From Escherichia phage ECO4: a DNA stretch of 64,000 bases. Positions 41,110 through 51,742 of the stretch are shown in pieces. The stretch lies in the sequence record NC_054911.1; one strand, written 5' to 3'. The notes under the pieces were generated by a model. The model was given only the letters and a program-made list of their open reading frames with translations, was not told the origin of the DNA and ran no database searches. The position numbers and the translations under genes are program-made. The first letter of the stretch is position 1; each line of letters opens with the position of its first letter.

Positions 41110-41435
41110 TTAGAAAATAAATTTATCCAAGATTGTTCTTTAATTAAAAATGGCTCAGAATCGTATGCCATTAAACTTTGGGTGATTAGTCCTTTAAAAG
41201 GTCCATCAATAAATTCCATAGTAAAATATGGAATTTTATTCATTAATCTTGCATTAGGAGCAGTACACAAAACTCTGCATCCTTTGAATACGCCTTTTTG
41301 TAATTTGTATTGCTTGGGATAAAATTCGCTCAAAATGTTATTTTTTGCCAAAATTTCAAAATGATTCACCAATTTATTTTTAATAGTTTTTGGCGAAAAA
41401 TAAAGATATTCGAAAAGTTGCGTATCTGTCATCAT
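41106..41435 (-). CDS. hypothetical protein
   Basis: Start trimmed to MMTDTQL to remove overlap with upstream gene. Confidence 0.4.
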
Positions 41436-42019
41436 TGCATTCCGATTACGAAAAACTGTGGACGAGTAATACCACCAATGCAACATTTAATATTACAGCA
41501 GCAGTGTACAGTGTCAATATGGACACTATAAATCTTATCCATATCAGGAGATTTGACAGGCTCATCAATTATATACAAAATTCGCGAAAGCGATAAACCT
41601 CTGAACTTGCTTCCTTTATTACCAATAAAACTGCGCACAGAATCAGTAAATAAACGAAAACGTATATCATCATTAGAATAACGCGAAAATTCCTTTTTAA
41701 TATTATCTGCGGAAATTTTAGCGTAAGCTGAAGTATTAGAAAGAACAATAACTGTTCCGCCATCATACAGCCAATTAGCAGCAAAGTTAGTCACAGCAAT
41801 TGATTTGCCGGATTGACGTCCACCATCTATACGAAGTGTGCAGTACTGTTTAAGTAATTCTTCAAATGGCGGGATATAATCGTTTTTACAAATTTCTTCT
41901 ACTCTAGCATCAGAATGGTGTGTAAAAGCATTCATCAGGGATAGATAAGGACCAGTTAAAAATGTTCTCATTTTATTCTCTCTAGGTTTGGGCCATTCCG
42001 TGGCACATGAATTGTCCAT
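41432..42019 (-). CDS. P-loop NTPase
   Basis: Walker A GGRQSGKS and Walker B-like ILYIIDEP; start approximate. Confidence 0.5.
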   Translation of the reverse strand: MDNSCATEWPKPRENKMRTFLTGPYLSLMNAFTHHSDARVEEICKNDYIPPFEELLKQYCTLRIDGGRQSGKSIAVTNFAANWLYDGGTVIVLSNTSAYAKISADNIKKEFSRYSNDDIRFRLFTDSVRSFIGNKGSKFRGLSLSRILYIIDEPVKSPDMDKIYSVHIDTVHCCCNIKCCIGGITRPQFFVIGMQ

Positions 42020-42124: not shown

Positions 42125-42598
42125 TTATTTAAATGATTTGACGTACTGAACAGAACCTTTACTATTCACGAAAGCGATTTTACCATTTTTATTATACATG
42201 GTAGCAGTACGCTGATAGCCATAAGTTTGCTTACCAGATTGATAACCAACTAATGCAAAATTATCTTCACCCATTTTATTCTGTTTAGCGCGAATGCGTT
42301 CATGACCATGTGCCATAAGAACCTTAGCATCACCCGTTGCAATGGATCTACGAGTTTTTTCATCTTCAACTGTATTAACAAAATCATCAAATGAATCAAA
42401 TTTAGCATGAGATTTATTATACAGTTTTCCATCTACTGCATAATTATATCCTTGCACATCCATCTCAACTTCTGTACCATCATCCAATACAGCAGTGATT
42501 TTCTGTCCTTTTTTAAATTTCAAAAGATCAGTAAAAGATTCAGCAATAATTTGAGAATTAATAGCTGCTTCAGTGATAAATTCTTGATATGTTTTCAT
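42125..42598 (-). CDS. internal-protein-like head protein with capsid-targeting N-terminus
   Basis: N-terminus MKTYQEFITEA matches the capsid-targeting sequence of T4 internal proteins. Confidence 0.6.
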   Translation of the reverse strand: MKTYQEFITEAAINSQIIAESFTDLLKFKKGQKITAVLDDGTEVEMDVQGYNYAVDGKLYNKSHAKFDSFDDFVNTVEDEKTRRSIATGDAKVLMAHGHERIRAKQNKMGEDNFALVGYQSGKQTYGYQRTATMYNKNGKIAFVNSKGSVQYVKSFK

Positions 42599-42607
42599 AT
42601 GTTTCCT

Positions 42608-43024
42608 TTAAATGTAAATATTTTTGCCGTAATACTTGTACCAGTGTGGCTTCATTAAAATTTTTTCATCGAGTCGTTGTTGACTCAATTTAATAGCTGA
42701 TTTGCATGGATTATAATCATTTTTCCATTCTGCTGGAATATCGCTGATGTCAGGAACTTCAGTATCTTTTATACTAAACCCGCGTTTTAAGCATTCCGTT
42801 ATAATGTCTGATTGACGCTTTCGCAAAAATTCTAACTTATCGTAAAAGAACGTAACATGACCAGAACCTAAAATAAACTCGGAAGATATTTTAAAATCTT
42901 TAACCCGCTTACCATTTGCCACATGTTTACGAACTATACCAAAAACACGTGGCAATTCACGGTATTCTGCGATTAAATGCTGATCAGCAAGTTCAGATAC
43001 TAAAGTCAAATTAATACGAGTCAT
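42608..43024 (-). CDS. denV: endonuclease V (pyrimidine-dimer DNA glycosylase)
   Basis: 138 aa [29 protein letters not shown]...; downstream of early promoter. Confidence 0.93.
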
Positions 43025-43083: not shown

Positions 43084-43614
<531 letters not shown>

Positions 43615-44899: not shown

Positions 44900-45273
44900 C
44901 GTGATTCCTTAACAAATTTCATAATTTCATCAAATTCATGTGCAGCAAGTTTAAGCTGATGTTCCTTTTTAATCTTTTTACACTGGGCTTTCCAATCACG
45001 TACACGTTTACGATAGTGTCTTCCTTGATACCAGTATCCCACCCAATTTACAGGTACTAATAAAAATGGAACTATCATTGGAAGAATTAGTGTTGACGCA
45101 AATATTATATTAGATTCAATATCAGTCATAACATCTATAACTATTCCAACCCCCAGTAGAATTACAAATGATACAGCTATTACAGGACCTATTAATACAT
45201 CAGTAGAAATTAGCTGGCGCTTTAATTCATACTTCAACGGTTTACTTGGAAGATACATTGATGGCTTTGACAT
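44881..45273 (-). CDS. membrane protein
   Basis: 130 aa with two hydrophobic helices. Confidence 0.5.
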   Translation of the reverse strand: MSKPSMYLPSKPLKYELKRQLISTDVLIGPVIAVSFVILLGVGIVIDVMTDIESNIIFASTLILPMIVPFLLVPVNWVGYWYQGRHYRKRVRDWKAQCKKIKKEHQLKLAAHEFDEIMKFVKESRCKSQN

Positions 45274-45844
45274 ATTCTCTACATTCCTTCACAAATTTTT
45301 CTAATAATAAATCGCTTTCAAAATTGGGATTTTCTACGAATTTATCAAAAAGATCATCAACAATAGTTAAGATATTCTTTTTACTAAGAATACGCTTATT
45401 TTCATGCTTCGTTTCAGAATCAACTATAAGAGTAAAGAAATATTTCTTGCCCTGAAATTTTACAGTAGTATCAATATAGAATAAATTTGACTTTTGTAAA
45501 TTACGTTTAAACCATGCATCACTTAAACTATAAACGCCAAGATAATCATAATCGTCGTTTAAATAACAGACCGTCCATTCAGGAGAAACAAAATCAGTAA
45601 ATTCAACGTCAAAATCGCATGTTAATGAATGAATTGATTCAATACTGTTAATAAGTATTCCAGGACGTATTAAAGACTTTTTACCTCTAGAAAATCTTCC
45701 AGAAAGATTTTCATCAGTTTCATATGAAGAACCCCAATAATAATTACGTCCTTCTGCCATACGTTTAAGAGCATTTAATAATTGGTCTGGAACATCAACT
45801 TGTCTTTGGAATTCTTCAAACATTGAATTGAAATCACTTTGCAT
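45242..45844 (-). CDS. hypothetical protein
   Basis: 200 aa ORF. Confidence 0.5.
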   Translation of the reverse strand: MQSDFNSMFEEFQRQVDVPDQLLNALKRMAEGRNYYWGSSYETDENLSGRFSRGKKSLIRPGILINSIESIHSLTCDFDVEFTDFVSPEWTVCYLNDDYDYLGVYSLSDAWFKRNLQKSNLFYIDTTVKFQGKKYFFTLIVDSETKHENKRILSKKNILTIVDDLFDKFVENPNFESDLLLEKFVKECREYVKAINVSSK

Positions 45845-47440: not shown

Positions 47441-47573
47441 AGTTTTGTGAAAAATTTTTTAAAAAGTTTTGGGGAATTCTAGGGCAAGGAGGGGAAATCA
47501 AAGGATAGGATAATATATTATAAAGGGTAGAAACTAAATGATGCCTAGAGAGGCCTGGAAAGGCCTAGATACC

Positions 47574-47601
47574 AAAAAGCCCCAACCTTTTGGTCGGGGC
47601 T
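47574..47601 (-). terminator. intrinsic terminator (10-bp stem, GNRA loop, U5)
   Basis: AGCCCCGACC-AAAA-GGUUGGGGCU followed by UUUUU. Confidence 0.75.
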
Positions 47602-47608
47602 AAGAATG

Positions 47609-48084
47609 TTATTTGATTTGTTTAGCAGACCAAATGCGGTCTTTAATAATTTTTTGGATGTCTTCAACATACTCTAGGTCATGAGCATGTGGGTTATCTT
47701 TAAAGCTATGAGCACGAGCTAGCTTTTGGCCTTCAGTTTTGATTACTAAAAGCTCTTTAAGGATAGCTTCATATTTGGAGATAATTCCTTTAACGATATT
47801 TTTTTTTCTTGTGCGACTTTAGGATCTGCTTTAGGAGCAGGTTTACCCGAAGCCTTTGCAAAAGCAGCGCCAGTAGCAACTAAACTTTTCCAGGCCATAC
47901 TAACTGCATTTCCCGTAAATCCTTCCGCTTTCATGTCGCGTGCGAACTGAAATCGCGATTCATCAGAAGCATCTTTGTAAGAATATTTACCCGCTGCAAT
48001 GGCTGCTTTTGCGACAGCTTGAATTTCGGTGCTAGATGCTTCATTTAACACCGCTTCATTTAAAAATTGAGTATATGATTTCAT
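47609..48084 (-). CDS. internal-protein-like gene with capsid-targeting N-terminus, broken by a frameshift at an A9 tract
   Basis: N-terminus MKSYTQFLNEA; annotated frame stops at 47746 but a start-less protein-like frame continues to a stop at 47609 next to the terminator; frames meet at the T9/A9 run 47799-47807; late promoter TATAAATA upstream. Confidence 0.5.
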
Positions 48085-48120: not shown

Positions 48121-48128
48121 TATTTATA
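48121..48128 (-). promoter_or_regulatory. late promoter TATAAATA for internal-protein-like gene
   Basis: Minus-strand TATAAATA immediately after terminator hairpin, 37 nt upstream of ATG 48084. Confidence 0.6.
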
Positions 48129-48130
48129 CT

Positions 48131-48158
48131 AAAAAGCCCCAACCTTTCGGTCGGGGCT
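48131..48158 (-). terminator. intrinsic terminator (10-bp stem, GAAA loop, U5); near-identical copy of the 47574 element
   Basis: AGCCCCGACC-GAAA-GGUUGGGGCU followed by UUUUU. Confidence 0.75.
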
Positions 48159-48465
48159 AAGCCTTGCGGCAACCTTGTCGGGGTTCCACCTGCTAAGGCA
48201 AGTGTTTGTACGAAACGCCGGGATTCGAACCCGGTTATCAAGCAGTTGACGCTACTCAATATTTTTAAAAGGCCATATCTCGACCATATCCGAACGTTCC
48301 GTCAAAAACGCTACTCGGTTTACGGCAAAGATATTTCCTCGAATCGATAATTCGGTGCGCCGTTTCTGCTGTGATAGTAAAGAGCCAGAACACAGTAAAA
48401 CTGTGGGAGGAAACTATACTCCAGGGAACATCAGTCCGACGACTTACCGGTAGCGACCCGGTTTC
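48159..48465 (-). ncRNA. candidate small stable RNA(s) downstream of tRNA cluster (T4 RNA C/D-like position)
   Basis: No ORF; contains tRNA-like T-arm GGGTTCGAATCCCGG and stem-forming segments; ends at a strong terminator hairpin. Confidence 0.35.
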
Positions 48466-48816
48466 TTAGTATTCTTTTAAAGCATCAACCTGTTCACGAC
48501 GTTTACGCCATAAATCAATTACTTCATACGCAGATTCAGCATTTCGAATTGGACGGCATTTATATAAAGACTTGTGATTTTGATATTGTGTAGATAACGG
48601 AATTTTATCTAAAAGGTCTTTACGTTCAAAATATTCGTAACCATCTAAACCAAATGAACGATTTTTGAGAAATTGCCAATGACCAAATTCGTTTTCGACA
48701 TAAACATAATCTGCGTGTTGATAAAGCAAATTAGTTTCACGAGATGAGATATGGTTTTCATATTCATTGAAGTAAAATGTTAAATCATGAACTACTAAGT
48801 AAACATTACCTTTCAT
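48466..48816 (-). CDS. hypothetical protein
   Basis: 116 aa, strong RBS GAGGAAAATATG, immediately downstream of tRNA-Arg. Confidence 0.55.
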   Translation of the reverse strand: MKGNVYLVVHDLTFYFNEYENHISSRETNLLYQHADYVYVENEFGHWQFLKNRSFGLDGYEYFERKDLLDKIPLSTQYQNHKSLYKCRPIRNAESAYEVIDLWRKRREQVDALKEY

Positions 48817-48834: not shown

Positions 48835-48910
48835 TGGTCGAGGCAGTAGGGATCGAACCTACGACCCAGGACTTAGAAGGTCCTTGCTCTTCCTTCTGAG
48901 CTATGCCTCG
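48835..48910 (-). tRNA. tRNA-Arg (anticodon UCU), CCA encoded
   Basis: Manual cloverleaf: acceptor CGAGGCA/TGCCTCG, anticodon loop CTTCTAA, T-loop TTCGATC. Confidence 0.8.
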
Positions 48911-48914
48911 TATT

Positions 48915-48989
48915 TGGCGGACGTGATAGGATTCGAACCTATAACCAATCACTTAACAGGCGATCGCTCTGCCATTGAGCTACACATCC
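48915..48989 (-). tRNA. tRNA-Asn (anticodon GUU), CCA encoded
   Basis: Manual cloverleaf: acceptor GGATGTG/CACGTCC, D-stem GCTC/GAGC, anticodon loop CTGTTAA, T-loop TTCGAAT. Confidence 0.75.
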
Positions 48990-48993
48990 AAAT

Positions 48994-49080
48994 TGGTGGG
49001 GAGTGATGGAGTCGAACCACCCGAGTCGCAATGACAATGGATTTACAGTCCACACCGCTACCTCTACGGGATAACTCCCC
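48994..49080 (-). tRNA. tRNA-Tyr (anticodon GUA), class II with long variable arm, CCA encoded
   Basis: Manual fold: acceptor GGGGAGT/ACTCCCC, anticodon loop CTGTAAA, long variable arm, T-loop TTCGACT. Confidence 0.7.
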
Positions 49081-49089
49081 AAATTAATT

Positions 49090-49164
49090 TGGTGGCCCTG
49101 GGTGGAATTGAACCACCATCTGGCGATTATGAGTCGCTTGCTTGAACCTTCCAGCTACAGGGCC
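49090..49164 (-). tRNA. tRNA with CAU anticodon (Ile2 or Met), CCA encoded
   Basis: Acceptor GGCCCTG/CAGGGCC, anticodon loop CTCATAA, T-loop TTCAATT; position of tRNA-Ile in T4. Confidence 0.75.
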
Positions 49165-49165
49165 T

Positions 49166-49241
49166 TGGTGCTGATTGACGGAATCGAACCGCCGACCTTC
49201 TCATTACAAGTGAGTTGCTCTACCTACTGAGCTAAATCAGC
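49166..49241 (-). tRNA. tRNA-Thr (anticodon UGU), CCA encoded
   Basis: Acceptor GCTGATT/AATCAGC, anticodon loop CTTGTAA, T-loop TTCGATT. Confidence 0.8.
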
Positions 49242-49246
49242 AAAAC

Positions 49247-49336
49247 TGGCGGAGGCGATAGGATTTGAACCTATGAGTCGCCGGAGCGACTGCCGGTTTT
49301 CAAGACCGGTGCATTAAACCACTCTGCCACGCCTCC
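49247..49336 (-). tRNA. tRNA-Ser (anticodon UGA), class II
   Basis: Acceptor GGAGGCG/CGCCTCC, anticodon stem CCGGT/ACCGG with loop CTTGAAA, long variable arm. Confidence 0.8.
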
Positions 49337-49338
49337 AG

Positions 49339-49412
49339 TCTCCGCGGCAGGATTTGAACCTACGACATTCTGCTCCCAAAGCAGACGCTCTACCAAACTG
49401 AGCTACACGGAG
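49339..49412 (-). tRNA. tRNA-Pro (anticodon UGG), CCA not encoded
   Basis: Acceptor CTCCGTG/CGCGGAG (C1-G72), anticodon loop TTTGGGA, T-loop TTCAAAT. Confidence 0.8.
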
Positions 49413-49422
49413 TAAATTAAAT

Positions 49423-49496
<74 letters not shown>

Positions 49497-49501
49497 AAAT
49501 T

Positions 49502-49588
49502 TGGTGCGAGAAGTGGGACTCGAACCCACAAGGAAATCATTCCGCAGCATTTTAAGTGCTGTGCCTTTACCAATTTGACCATTCTCGC
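49502..49588 (-). tRNA. tRNA-Leu (anticodon UAA), class II, CCA encoded
   Basis: Acceptor GCGAGAA/TTCTCGC, anticodon stem CAGCA/TGCTG loop CTTAAAA, long variable arm. Confidence 0.8.
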
Positions 49589-49589
49589 G

Positions 49590-49662
49590 CTGGGAATAAA
49601 GGACTCGAACCTTTGCATCCTGGAATCAAAATCCAGTGCCTTACCAACTTGGCTAATTCCCA
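49590..49662 (-). tRNA. tRNA-Gln (anticodon UUG), CCA not encoded
   Basis: Acceptor TGGGAAT/ATTCCCA, anticodon stem CTGGA/TCCAG loop TTTTGAT, T-loop TTCGAGT. Confidence 0.8.
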
Positions 49663-50696: not shown

Positions 50697-50981
50697 TTAC
50701 AAAAGATTTTTAGCAATAATTTTAAGCTGAGCTACTGAAATATGCTTGGCTTTAAACAAAGCAGTTTCTTCAGCAGGTGAGATAACGATTGTAGCACCAT
50801 CTTTCTTAGCGGACCATCCATCACCCAGGTAAACAGTACCTTTGACTTCTTCGCCATCAACCAGGCTAATCATCGGTTTACCTTCACGTCCTTTGTTTGC
50901 TTTAATAACTTCAGAAGTAAGGGTCGCTTCAGTCAAAGTAGAAGCGTTAGTCGTTGAAGTGAATTCTTGATAAGTTTTCAT
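50697..50981 (-). CDS. ipI: internal protein I-like (capsid-targeted, DNA-co-injected protein)
   Basis: N-terminus MKTYQEF capsid-targeting sequence; position immediately before 57B as in T4; early promoter upstream. Confidence 0.7.
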   Translation of the reverse strand: MKTYQEFTSTTNASTLTEATLTSEVIKANKGREGKPMISLVDGEEVKGTVYLGDGWSAKKDGATIVISPAEETALFKAKHISVAQLKIIAKNLL

Positions 50982-51016: not shown

Positions 51017-51046
51017 ATAATATCACTTCTCCATCATCGTGTAAAC
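51017..51046 (-). promoter_or_regulatory. early promoter, GTTTAC-18nt-TATTAT
   Basis: Upstream of ipI. Confidence 0.7.
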
Positions 51047-51063
51047 AACTTTGTGAAATTATT

Positions 51064-51742
<679 letters not shown>

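What the first reader, a model, noticed from the sequence alone, without database searches (positions are those of the whole stretch)
42125..42598. Internal-protein-like genes with capsid-targeting N-termini at three separate loci
Three ORFs begin with the MK(T/S)Y(Q/T)(E/Q)F motif that targets T4 internal proteins into the prohead: 42125-42598 (MKTYQEFITEA, between the P-loop gene and denV), 47609-48084 (MKSYTQFLNEA, frameshifted) and 50697-50981 (MKTYQEF, ipI position). denV is followed directly by e, so the T4 ipII/ipIII positions are empty and the genes sit elsewhere. Internal proteins are injected with the DNA, and IPI of T4 inhibits a type IV restriction enzyme, so these variable genes are candidate anti-restriction factors.
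Basis: partly seen in the sequence, partly recalled or inferred. Interest (0 to 1): 0.5.

Follow-up and report, generated by a model that had tools for sequence, protein, structure and literature searches.

The report
Three T4-type injected internal-protein genes
The three genes are real members of the variable set of small proteins that T4-like phages pack into the head and inject with their DNA; two are already named (IPI and Ip4), and the third is a widespread unannotated family that looks like a further internal protein and is frameshifted in this phage.

Summary
MK[TS]Y[QT][EQ]F occurs exactly three times in the six-frame translation, each at the start of a minus-strand ORF, against 0.0003 expected. 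The window is a Tequatrovirus; exact protein look-ups point to Escherichia phage ECO4.

- **42125-42598** is Ip4: Pfam DUF7412, 98% identical to phage K3 Ip4, and named Ip4/IpIV in RB14, RB32, PST and T2.
- **50697-50981** is a true IPI orthologue. Residues 19-94 match 73 of 76 residues of the solved GmrSD inhibitor IPI* (PDB 2JUB).
- **47609-48084** belongs to a family found in 510 phage records and almost always labelled hypothetical. It has a conserved targeting-type N-terminus, L-x-E cleavage sites and a basic mature part. A hairpin plus TATAAATA upstream context is conserved in three genera. In this window a 9-A run, against 7 in intact relatives, truncates it to 112 aa.

Ip4 has not moved to a new locus. 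It lies in the same variable e-to-vs.8 region as T4 ipII and ipIII.

The anti-restriction idea is established for T4 Ip1-3. Published tests of ip4-10 found no reproducible target. Only the third family adds something modestly new.

The parts
42125..42598 (-). ip4 gene (157 aa). The predicted propeptide is residues 1-10 (ITE|A), with a second invariant site at E20 (IAE|S). The predicted mature protein is about 15.5-16.5 kDa with pI 9.1-9.3.
   Evidence: Pfam DUF7412 at 1e-95 and phrog_3155 'internal virion protein'. It is 98% identical to UniProt Q38388 Ip4 of phage K3. The gene is named Ip4 in RB14 and RB32 and ipIV in PST. E10 and E20 are invariant across 13 homologues.
42576..42625 (-). 50-nt ip leader: 27 nt of 5' UTR with the ribosome-binding site, plus the first 23 nt of the targeting-sequence coding region. 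It overlaps the last codons and stop of denV.
   Evidence: 100% identical to the T4 ipII leader, and 38 nt are identical to the T4 ipIII leader. The flanking genes are only 78-95% identical.
42608..43024 (-). denV, a divergent allele. It occupies the slot directly after e where T4 and PST carry ipIII.
   Evidence: Pfam Pyr_excise and phrog_1183. Only 78% nt identity to T4 denV, with flanks at 94-95%.
43592..43612 (-). Two TATAAATA late-promoter boxes upstream of e. They are the nearest candidate late promoters for read-through into denV and ip4.
   Evidence: No terminator-like site was predicted on the minus strand between here and ip4.
47609..48084 (-). Third targeting-sequence gene, of the RB32ORF133c / phrog_2280 family. 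It is frameshifted here: the open reading frame is 47746-48084 (112 aa), and the 3' remainder 47609-47745 is intact in another frame.
   Evidence: The repaired product is 100% identical to the intact BECP11 protein.
47799..47807 (-). Poly-A tract of 9 A, against 7 A in intact alleles. This is the site of the +2 frameshift, at codon 94, just after the linker between the two predicted domains.
   Evidence: Other genomes carry 6-A and 8-A variants at the same site.
48121..48128 (-). TATAAATA late-promoter box 36 nt upstream of the ATG of the third gene.
   Evidence: The same hairpin-TATAAATA-ATG layout lies upstream of the Jiaodavirus and Tegunavirus homologues.
48126..48161 (-). Upstream copy of a 36-nt direct repeat containing the rnaC-type terminator hairpin (48135-48158).
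47569..47604 (-). Downstream copy of the 36-nt direct repeat (hairpin 47578-47601). The two copies bracket a 557-bp cassette that T4 lacks; T4 has a single copy of the repeat.
50697..50981 (-). ipI gene (94 aa). The propeptide is residues 1-18 (LTE|A) and the mature IPI* is residues 19-94 (76 aa, pI about 9.0).
   Evidence: Pfam IPI_T4 at 1e-51, with protein 19-94 matching profile positions 1-76. 73 of 76 residues are identical to PDB 2JUB IPI*.
51017..51045 (-). Early-promoter-like site (TTTACA-17-TATTAT) with an overlapping inverted repeat upstream of ipI. This is the promoter/stem-loop type of element reported around Ip genes.
   Evidence: The concept comes from PMC4122927.

Best explanation
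The three ORFs are genes for T-even-type internal proteins: IPI, Ip4 and a third, unnamed family.

Inferred mechanism, by analogy with T4 IPI-III:
1. The proteins are made in the late period.
2. Their roughly 10-residue N-terminal capsid-targeting sequence binds them to the scaffolding core while the prohead assembles. An aromatic residue at position 4 and Phe at 7 serve targeting; Ile or Leu at 8 and Glu at 10 serve processing.
3. The gp21 prohead protease cuts after L/I-x-E. This leaves small basic proteins of about 8-16 kDa inside the DNA-filled head.
4. They are injected with the DNA and act before any phage gene is expressed.

IPI* blocks a GmrSD-type type IV restriction enzyme that cuts glucosyl-hmC DNA. 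The window's copy is 96% identical in the mature part, so the same activity is expected. Ip4 and the third protein most likely neutralise other host immunity proteins that have not been identified.

Their different positions reflect cassette shuffling in hyperplastic regions. Ip4 was exchanged through the conserved ip leader and promoter/stem-loop elements within the e-to-vs.8 locus. The third gene is a self-contained cassette of terminator, late promoter, ORF and terminator, inserted at the rnaC terminator.

In this phage the third gene carries a +2 change in homopolymer length. As written, it yields only the targeting sequence, the N-terminal domain and the linker.
For: Shown here:
- The motif is present 3 times against 0.0003 expected, always at an ORF start.
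- Tyr4, Phe7 and an L/I-x-E site within residues 8-20 are present in all three.
- In Ip4, E10 and E20 are invariant over homologues down to 61% identity.
- Members of the third family down to below 40% identity keep M-x-x-[FY]-x-x-F-[LV]-x-E-[AG].
- Profile comparison shows the third family shares only the 10-residue leader with Ip4, IPII and IPIII. That is the hallmark of Ips.
- The predicted mature parts have pI 9.0-9.8, like T4 IPI*, IPII* and IPIII*.
- IPI identity: Pfam IPI_T4 and 73 of 76 residues identical to 2JUB, beginning exactly at the mature N-terminus.
- Ip4 identity: DUF7412, and 98% to K3 Ip4 Q38388.
- The hairpin + TATAAATA + roughly 35 nt + ATG layout is conserved upstream of the third family in Tequatrovirus, Jiaodavirus and Tegunavirus.
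- Indel structure relative to T4.

From the literature:
- Targeting-sequence residues and the gp21 motif (PMC9026906).
- IPI* against GmrSD (PMC3012670).
- Ip1, Ip2 and Ip3 each inhibit a different GmrSD (PMC12373910).
Against: - No virion proteomics or processing data were found for Ip4 or the third family.
- ip4-10 were tested against 15 GmrSD groups without a reproducible inhibitory interaction (PMC12373910), so an anti-restriction role for Ip4 is unproven.
- TATAAATA alone is not enriched in the window: 12 found against 10.6 expected. Only its position and its conservation carry weight.
- The third gene is frameshifted here, so in this phage it may be non-functional.
- The structure models have moderate confidence (pLDDT about 75) and gave no informative fold match.
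Confidence: 0.8

Rival explanations
1. The third gene (47609-48084) is a decaying pseudogene, or simply a homopolymer sequencing error, and says nothing about function in this phage. Only IPI and Ip4 are working internal proteins here.
For: - The exact 112-aa product occurs in only one record, phage ECO4, among about 15 billion proteins.
- The same window has two other homopolymer-length differences from all close relatives that touch gene ends: -1 G at about 51075 in 57B/acb1, whose 149-aa product is also unique to ECO4, and +1 A at about 45844 at the e.5 start.
- Downstream of the shift the reading frame has no further damage. That fits an artefact or a very recent event.
Against: - Frameshifts at this same A-tract recur in independent genomes and lineages. 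The 8-A form QEKKYC* occurs in P0039 (9 contigs and several GenBank phages), P0054 and P0056. The 6-A form QEKISLKEL... occurs in P0006, P0064, P0068, P0071 and P0028.
- About 5 of 56 sampled GenBank records have a +1 length. The site is therefore a genuine indel hot spot, whatever the cause in this record.
- All other genes in the region have normal lengths.
Confidence: 0.45
2. Ip4 and the third protein are mainly structural or physical head components, serving DNA charge neutralisation, packaging rate or head-assembly kinetics, rather than inhibitors of host immunity.
For: - All predicted mature forms are basic and lysine-rich.
- T4 IPIII mutants assemble heads more slowly with a reduced burst, and internal-protein lysines contact DNA phosphates (PMC9026906, PMC3012670).
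- No GmrSD target was found for ip4-10 (PMC12373910).
Against: - All three T4 Ips now have a specific GmrSD target (PMC12373910).
- The mature parts of the different Ip families are unrelated in sequence and predicted fold. The genes are gained, lost and swapped between close relatives; for example wV7 carries IP5 where this phage has IPI. That pattern is typical of arms-race genes, not of a generic polycation.
- Ip4 is highly conserved within its family, with 68 invariant columns. This suggests a specific folded surface.
Confidence: 0.15
3. The shared N-terminus is only a recombination scar: a conserved DNA leader used for cassette exchange, not a working targeting signal in every gene that carries it.
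For: The Ip4 leader is 100% identical over 50 nt to the T4 ipII leader while the neighbouring genes are 78-95% identical. Conserved flanking elements have been proposed to mediate Ip shuffling (PMC4122927).
Against: - The third gene's leader differs from the ip leader at the DNA level and at residues 3, 5, 6, 8 and 9. It keeps M1, K2, Y4, F7, a hydrophobic residue at 8, E10 and A11.
- Distant family members with different codons keep the same pattern.
- That is selection on the peptide, not carry-over of DNA.
Confidence: 0.05

Closest known systems
T4 internal protein I (IPI / IPI*, PDB 2JUB, Pfam PF11634)
   Same: ORF 50697-50981 has the same locus (between 57B and trna.4) and the same length class. 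The propeptide ends in L/I-T-E|A, and the mature 76 residues are 73 of 76 identical.
   Different: The propeptide is 18 rather than 19 residues and reads MKTYQEF rather than MKTFKEF. There are three substitutions in the mature part (I to V, A to V, H to Q). Whether these alter GmrSD specificity was not tested.
Ip4 / IpIV of T-even phages (K3 Q38388; RB14, RB32, PST, T2; Pfam DUF7412)
   Same: ORF 42125-42598 is 98-99% identical, has the same length, and sits next to vs.8.
   Different: The upstream neighbour differs: denV here and in RB32/wV7-type phages, ipIII in PST. The function of Ip4 is unknown in every phage.
T4 IPII and IPIII (GmrSD-ECOR21 and GmrSD-ECOR17 inhibitors)
   Same: They share the 10-residue targeting sequence, identical in 9 of 10 residues with Ip4. 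They share the ribosome-binding site and leader DNA, a basic mature part, and the e-to-vs.8 hyperplastic locus.
   Different: The mature parts show no detectable similarity. Both genes are absent from this window.
Promoter/stem-loop (PeSL) cassette shuffling in T4-like hyperplastic regions (Arbiol 2010; Comeau 2014, PMC4122927; Repoila 1994)
   Same: ip4 and ipI are flanked by early-promoter/stem-loop elements and conserved leaders, and they differ between close relatives by whole-gene swaps.
   Different: The third gene's cassette is bounded by a duplicated intrinsic terminator and carries a late promoter box, not an early promoter/stem-loop.

Membership tests
T4-type internal proteins (Ip family, defined by the capsid-targeting sequence) | N-terminal leader of about 10 residues resembling MKTYQEFIAE, with an aromatic residue at 4 and Phe at 7 (targeting) | tested here: met
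   All three ORFs have M1, K2, [T/S]3, Y4 and F7. The role of these residues comes from PMC9026906.
T4-type internal proteins (Ip family, defined by the capsid-targeting sequence) | gp21 prohead-protease site L/I-x-E followed by a small residue within the first 10-20 residues | tested here: met
   Ip4 has ITE10|A and IAE20|S, both Glu invariant in the family. The third ORF has LNE10|A and LNE15|A. IPI has LTE18|A.
T4-type internal proteins (Ip family, defined by the capsid-targeting sequence) | Small basic mature protein unrelated in sequence to other Ips apart from the leader | tested here: met
   pI is 9.0-9.8 and mass 8-16 kDa. hhalign finds only the 10-residue leader in common.
T4-type internal proteins (Ip family, defined by the capsid-targeting sequence) | Expression in the late period, needed for incorporation into the prohead core | tested here: inconclusive
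   For the third ORF, a TATAAATA box lies 36 nt upstream and is conserved with its hairpin in three genera. For ip4, only the e late promoters upstream, with no predicted terminator between. The box alone is not enriched in the window. No transcript data exist.
T4-type internal proteins (Ip family, defined by the capsid-targeting sequence) | Location in one of the two described hyperplastic Ip loci (57B-trna.4 and e-vs.8) | tested here: met
   Met for ipI and ip4. Not met for the third ORF, which lies between rnaC and e.8. The 'two loci' statement is from PMC12373910.
T4-type internal proteins (Ip family, defined by the capsid-targeting sequence) | Physical presence in the virion in processed form, and injection with the DNA | not testable with these tools
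   This needs virion mass spectrometry or N-terminal sequencing. No such data were found in the held literature.
IPI (Pfam PF11634, GmrSD-CT596 inhibitor) | Sequence membership above the curated threshold, with the mature domain matching solved IPI* | tested here: met
   173 bits against a cut-off of 25. 2JUB matches at E 7.5e-43 over residues 19-94.
IPI (Pfam PF11634, GmrSD-CT596 inhibitor) | Inhibition of the GmrSD enzyme | not testable with these tools
   Inferred from 96% identity of the mature part. Requires a plating assay.
Ip4 (Pfam DUF7412 / PF24183) | Full-length match to the family profile and to the original K3 Ip4 | tested here: met
   318.5 bits against a cut-off of 27, over positions 1-157 of 158. 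98% identity to Q38388.
Type IV restriction (GmrSD) inhibitors | A demonstrated cognate GmrSD target for Ip4 or for the third protein | not testable with these tools
   Published screens of ip4-10 against 15 GmrSD groups gave no reproducible interaction (PMC12373910). No published test of the third family was found.

The most novel reading that the evidence does not exclude
The family at 47609-48084 (RB32ORF133c / phrog_2280) is present in about 510 sequenced phages and almost always labelled 'hypothetical'. It may be a genuine, so far unnamed, packaged and injected internal protein encoded at a third Ip locus (rnaC to e.8). It would be a self-contained late-promoter cassette bracketed by a duplicated terminator. 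Its internal A-tract is a recurrent indel hot spot that switches the product between a two-domain form and a form truncated just after the inter-domain linker. With 9 A, transcriptional slippage might also restore some full-length product.
Probability: 0.4. Interest if true: 0.4.

Novelty: already known. Interest (0 to 1): 0.25.

Why it matters
Injected internal proteins act before any phage gene is expressed. In T4 they are now known to be specific inhibitors of GmrSD-type restriction enzymes, so a phage's Ip set helps determine which wild hosts it can infect. That bears on host-range prediction and on choosing therapeutic T4-like phages.

For this window the practical result is a correct annotation: IPI, Ip4, and a candidate third Ip that is frameshifted. 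Ip4 and the third family are widespread and have no known target, which makes them reasonable candidates for counter-defence screens. Nothing here changes current understanding.

Tried and rejected
- **PDB sequence and profile searches.** Nothing was found for Ip4 or the third family. NCBIfam also gave nothing meaningful.
- **Literature.** Repoila et al. 1994, the source of ip4-10, is not held. Its content as used here comes from citing papers and my memory. Searches for locus names and for virion proteomics of Ip4 found nothing. The supplement of PMC12373910 does not give the ip4-10 sequences. I therefore could not check formally that the third family is not among ip6-10. I consider it unlikely, because those come from the two classical loci.
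- **A-tract variants in IMG/VR.** Exact-pattern scans gave too few matches to count: 2 for 7 A and 0 for 8 A. I used protein clusters and GenBank interval lengths instead.
- **TATAAATA as evidence on its own.** Rejected, because its count equals the chance expectation.
- **Rejected idea.** That ip4 occupies a novel third position. PST shows it belongs to the e-to-vs.8 Ip locus.

Full report
**1. What the window is**

The region is a T4-like phage of genus Tequatrovirus. It is 95-97% identical at the nucleotide level to the wV7, HY01, phiD1 and RB32-type phages. Exact look-ups of five encoded proteins all return Escherichia phage ECO4. All genes discussed here are on the minus strand.

In transcription order the genes are:
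- gene 1, 57A and 57B
- ORF 50697-50981
- trna.4, trna.3 and trna.2
- ten tRNAs (48835-49662)
- rnaD- and rnaC-like RNAs
- ORF 47609-48084
- e.8 through nudE
- e (43084-43578) and denV (42608-43024)
- ORF 42125-42598
- vs.8 (41432-42019)

**2. The observation**

Each occurrence is at the start codon of one of the three ORFs. The expectation from residue frequencies is 0.0003, and 200 shuffles gave none.

The second ORF is indeed frameshifted. Aligned with wV7, ECML-363 and phiD1, the window has two extra A in a homopolymer: 9 A at 47799-47807 against 7 A. The open frame stops after 112 codons. Deleting two A gives a 157-aa protein that is 100% identical to the intact protein of phage BECP11.

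T4 has e, ipIII, ipII, denV, vs.8.

**3. ORF 50697-50981 is IPI**

- It matches Pfam IPI_T4 at 1e-51. Protein residues 19-94 cover profile positions 1-76.
- It matches PDB 2JUB, the solved mature IPI*, at 7.5e-43. 73 of 76 residues are identical, and the match begins exactly at the mature N-terminus.
- The propeptide is 18 residues and ends in LTE|A.
- The closest relative wV7 carries a different gene (IP5) at this position. This illustrates how these genes are swapped between close relatives.

**4. ORF 42125-42598 is Ip4**

- It matches Pfam DUF7412 over its full length (1e-95) and PHROG 3155 'internal virion protein'.
- It is 98% identical to UniProt Q38388, 'Ip4' of phage K3.
- It is 99% identical to the genes named Ip4 in RB14 and RB32, and to IpIV of T2 and PST.
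- It occurs in 469 phage records, including Klebsiella and Salmonella T4-like phages at about 70% identity.
- In an alignment of 13 homologues reaching down to 61% identity, M1, K2, F7, E10 and E20 are invariant. Both Glu residues sit in hydrophobic-x-E|small contexts (ITE|A and IAE|S). Processing may therefore occur at residue 10, residue 20, or both. This is inference.

**5. Ip4 has not left the Ip locus**

The blastn comparison with T4 shows:
- Conserved flanks: e plus its downstream promoter region at 94.6%, and vs.8 at 94.9%.
- A divergent denV allele at 78%.
- A 50-nt stretch (42576-42625) that is 100% identical to the T4 ipII leader. It comprises 27 nt of UTR plus the first 23 coding nt.

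This stretch overlaps the last codons and stop of the window's denV. Recombination through the conserved ip leader is the likely origin of the junction (inference).

Yersinia phage PST has e, ipIII, ipIV, vs.8 and no denV. T4, PST and this window are therefore three permutations of one hyperplastic e-to-vs.8 locus. The arrangement seen here is common: 415 records cover at least 80% of the 2.7-kb query in one piece.

Conserved leaders and early-promoter/stem-loop elements have been proposed as the shuffling mechanism for Ip genes (PMC4122927, citing Repoila 1994).

**6. ORF 47609-48084 is the least-known part**

*Distribution and annotation.* The family is PHROG 2280 ('unknown function') and RB32ORF133c. 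It is found in 510 phage records. It is labelled 'hypothetical' in every row I saw. The single exception is a UniRef entry for a Klebsiella phage homologue, called 'Internal head protein'.

*Evidence that it is an internal protein:*
- (a) The N-terminus MKSYTQFLNE|AVLNE|A keeps M1, K2, Y4, F7, a hydrophobic residue at 8, E10 and A11. The DNA of the leader nevertheless differs from the ip4/ipII leader.
- (b) More distant members keep the same pattern. Examples are MKTYNEFLNES, MKFKEFLAEA, MLEYSEFLKEL, MLKFNEFLAEG, MINFSDFLNEG and MKSFSSFLNEG.
- (c) hhalign finds only the 10-residue leader in common with Ip4, IPII and IPIII. This is the property reported for Ips (PMC12373910).
- (d) The predicted mature protein is basic, with pI 9.5.
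- (e) The gene is preceded by an intrinsic-terminator hairpin and then immediately by TATAAATA, 36 nt before the ATG.

The layout in (e) is also found upstream of the Jiaodavirus homologue. It is found again upstream of a tandem pair of leader-bearing paralogues in Yersinia phage fHe-Yen9-01. TATAAATA alone is not enriched in the window (12 against 10.6 expected). Only its position and conservation count as evidence.

*Cassette structure.* Relative to T4 the gene is a 557-bp cassette bracketed by a 36-nt direct repeat of the rnaC terminator (47569-47604 and 48126-48161). T4 has one copy of the repeat.

*Predicted structure.* The AlphaFold model of the 96%-identical intact homologue P0001 (pLDDT 74.5) has three parts: a small helical N-domain (18-75), a Lys/Pro-rich linker (76-88) and a C-terminal helical hairpin (88-154). 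Distant homologues keep the N-domain and swap the C-terminal part.

**7. The frameshift**

The shift is at codon 94, just after the linker. The 112-aa product keeps the leader, the N-domain and the linker.

The same A-tract is hit repeatedly in other genomes:
- 8-A alleles end in QEKKYC*. They are P0039 (9 contigs and several GenBank phages), P0054 and P0056.
- 6-A alleles end in QEKISLKEL.... They are P0006, P0064, P0068, P0071 and P0028, the last in a divergent lineage.
- About 5 of 56 sampled GenBank records have a +1 length.

The 9-A allele is seen only in ECO4. The same window has two other changes in homopolymer length at gene ends. One is -1 G at about 51075, which alters the last residues of 57B/Acb1 and whose product is also unique to ECO4. 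The other is +1 A at about 45844, at the e.5 start.

I cannot tell whether the window's allele is a real mutation or an assembly error. Either way the site is an indel hot spot. Restoration of the frame by transcriptional slippage on 9 A is a possibility from general knowledge and was not tested.

**8. Mechanism and what is known**

*Targeting and processing.*
- The first 10 residues of IPIII suffice for capsid targeting.
- Residues 4 and 7 matter for targeting, and residues 8 and 10 for processing.
- gp21 cuts after L/I-x-E (PMC9026906).

*Known targets.*
- IPI* inhibits a GmrSD type IV enzyme (PMC3012670).
- In 2025, Ip1, Ip2 and Ip3 of T4 were each shown to inhibit a different GmrSD variant.
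- In the same study ip4-10 were tested against 15 GmrSD groups without a reproducible hit, and the authors speak of two Ip loci (PMC12373910).

For Ip4 it has already been tried without result. I found no published test of the third family.

The fold searches gave no lead.

**9. Verdict**

IPI and Ip4 are named, annotated genes in a well-described variable locus.

The one modestly new element is that the third gene family has all the sequence hallmarks of an internal protein, lies outside the two classical loci in its own late-promoter cassette, and carries a recurrently frameshifted A-tract.

Noticed in passing
window 51064-51513 (minus), indel at about 51075: 57B, named anti-CBASS protein Acb1 in UniRef, has a 1-nt deletion in a G-run compared with wV7, ECML-363, phiD1 and T4. 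Its C-terminus becomes ...KLDWQMI* (149 aa instead of 151-152). This exact product is found only in phage ECO4.
   Followed up: partly
window about 45844 (start of e.5, 45242-45844 minus): One extra A in an A-run just after the upstream ATG used in relatives moves the start two codons downstream (200 aa against 202). Together with the other two cases, this raises the question of homopolymer errors in this assembly.
   Followed up: partly
window 47799-47807 and homologous sites in other phages: The A-tract in the third Ip-like gene varies between 6, 7, 8 and 9 A across independent phage genomes. The variants give three different truncated products. It is either a mutational hot spot or a recurrent sequencing problem.
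   Followed up: partly
window 42608-42625 versus T4 ipII 5' UTR (L004 4720-4746): The last six codons of this denV allele, stop included (GKNIYI*), are encoded by sequence identical to the T4 ipII 5' UTR. T4 denV ends in the similar GKAIYA*. The T4 ipII leader may contain a fossil of a denV 3' end, or the reverse.
   Followed up: no
window 42608-43024: denV is only about 78% identical in nucleotides to T4 denV, while the flanking e and vs.8 are about 95%. It is a distinct denV allele inside the variable locus. Phage PST lacks denV altogether.
   Followed up: partly
L009 1922-3037 (Yersinia phage fHe-Yen9-01, KY593455): Two tandem genes (189 and 178 aa) both start with ML[QE]Y[NS]EFLKE and share a C-terminal TPDLY motif. 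They follow a single hairpin + TATAAATA. This looks like a duplicated pair of candidate internal proteins.
   Followed up: partly
window 48835-49662 and 48466-48816: A cluster of 10 tRNA genes, including Asn, Tyr and Met that T4 lacks, with no segB homing endonuclease. A 116-aa ORF resembling RB69ORF150c lies between tRNA-Arg and the rnaD/rnaC-like region.
   Followed up: no
window 41432-42019 (vs.8): The P-loop protein next to ip4 has a weak PHROG match to the terminase large-subunit ATPase region (5e-6) and a sub-threshold match to Pfam AAA_14. Its function is unknown.
   Followed up: no
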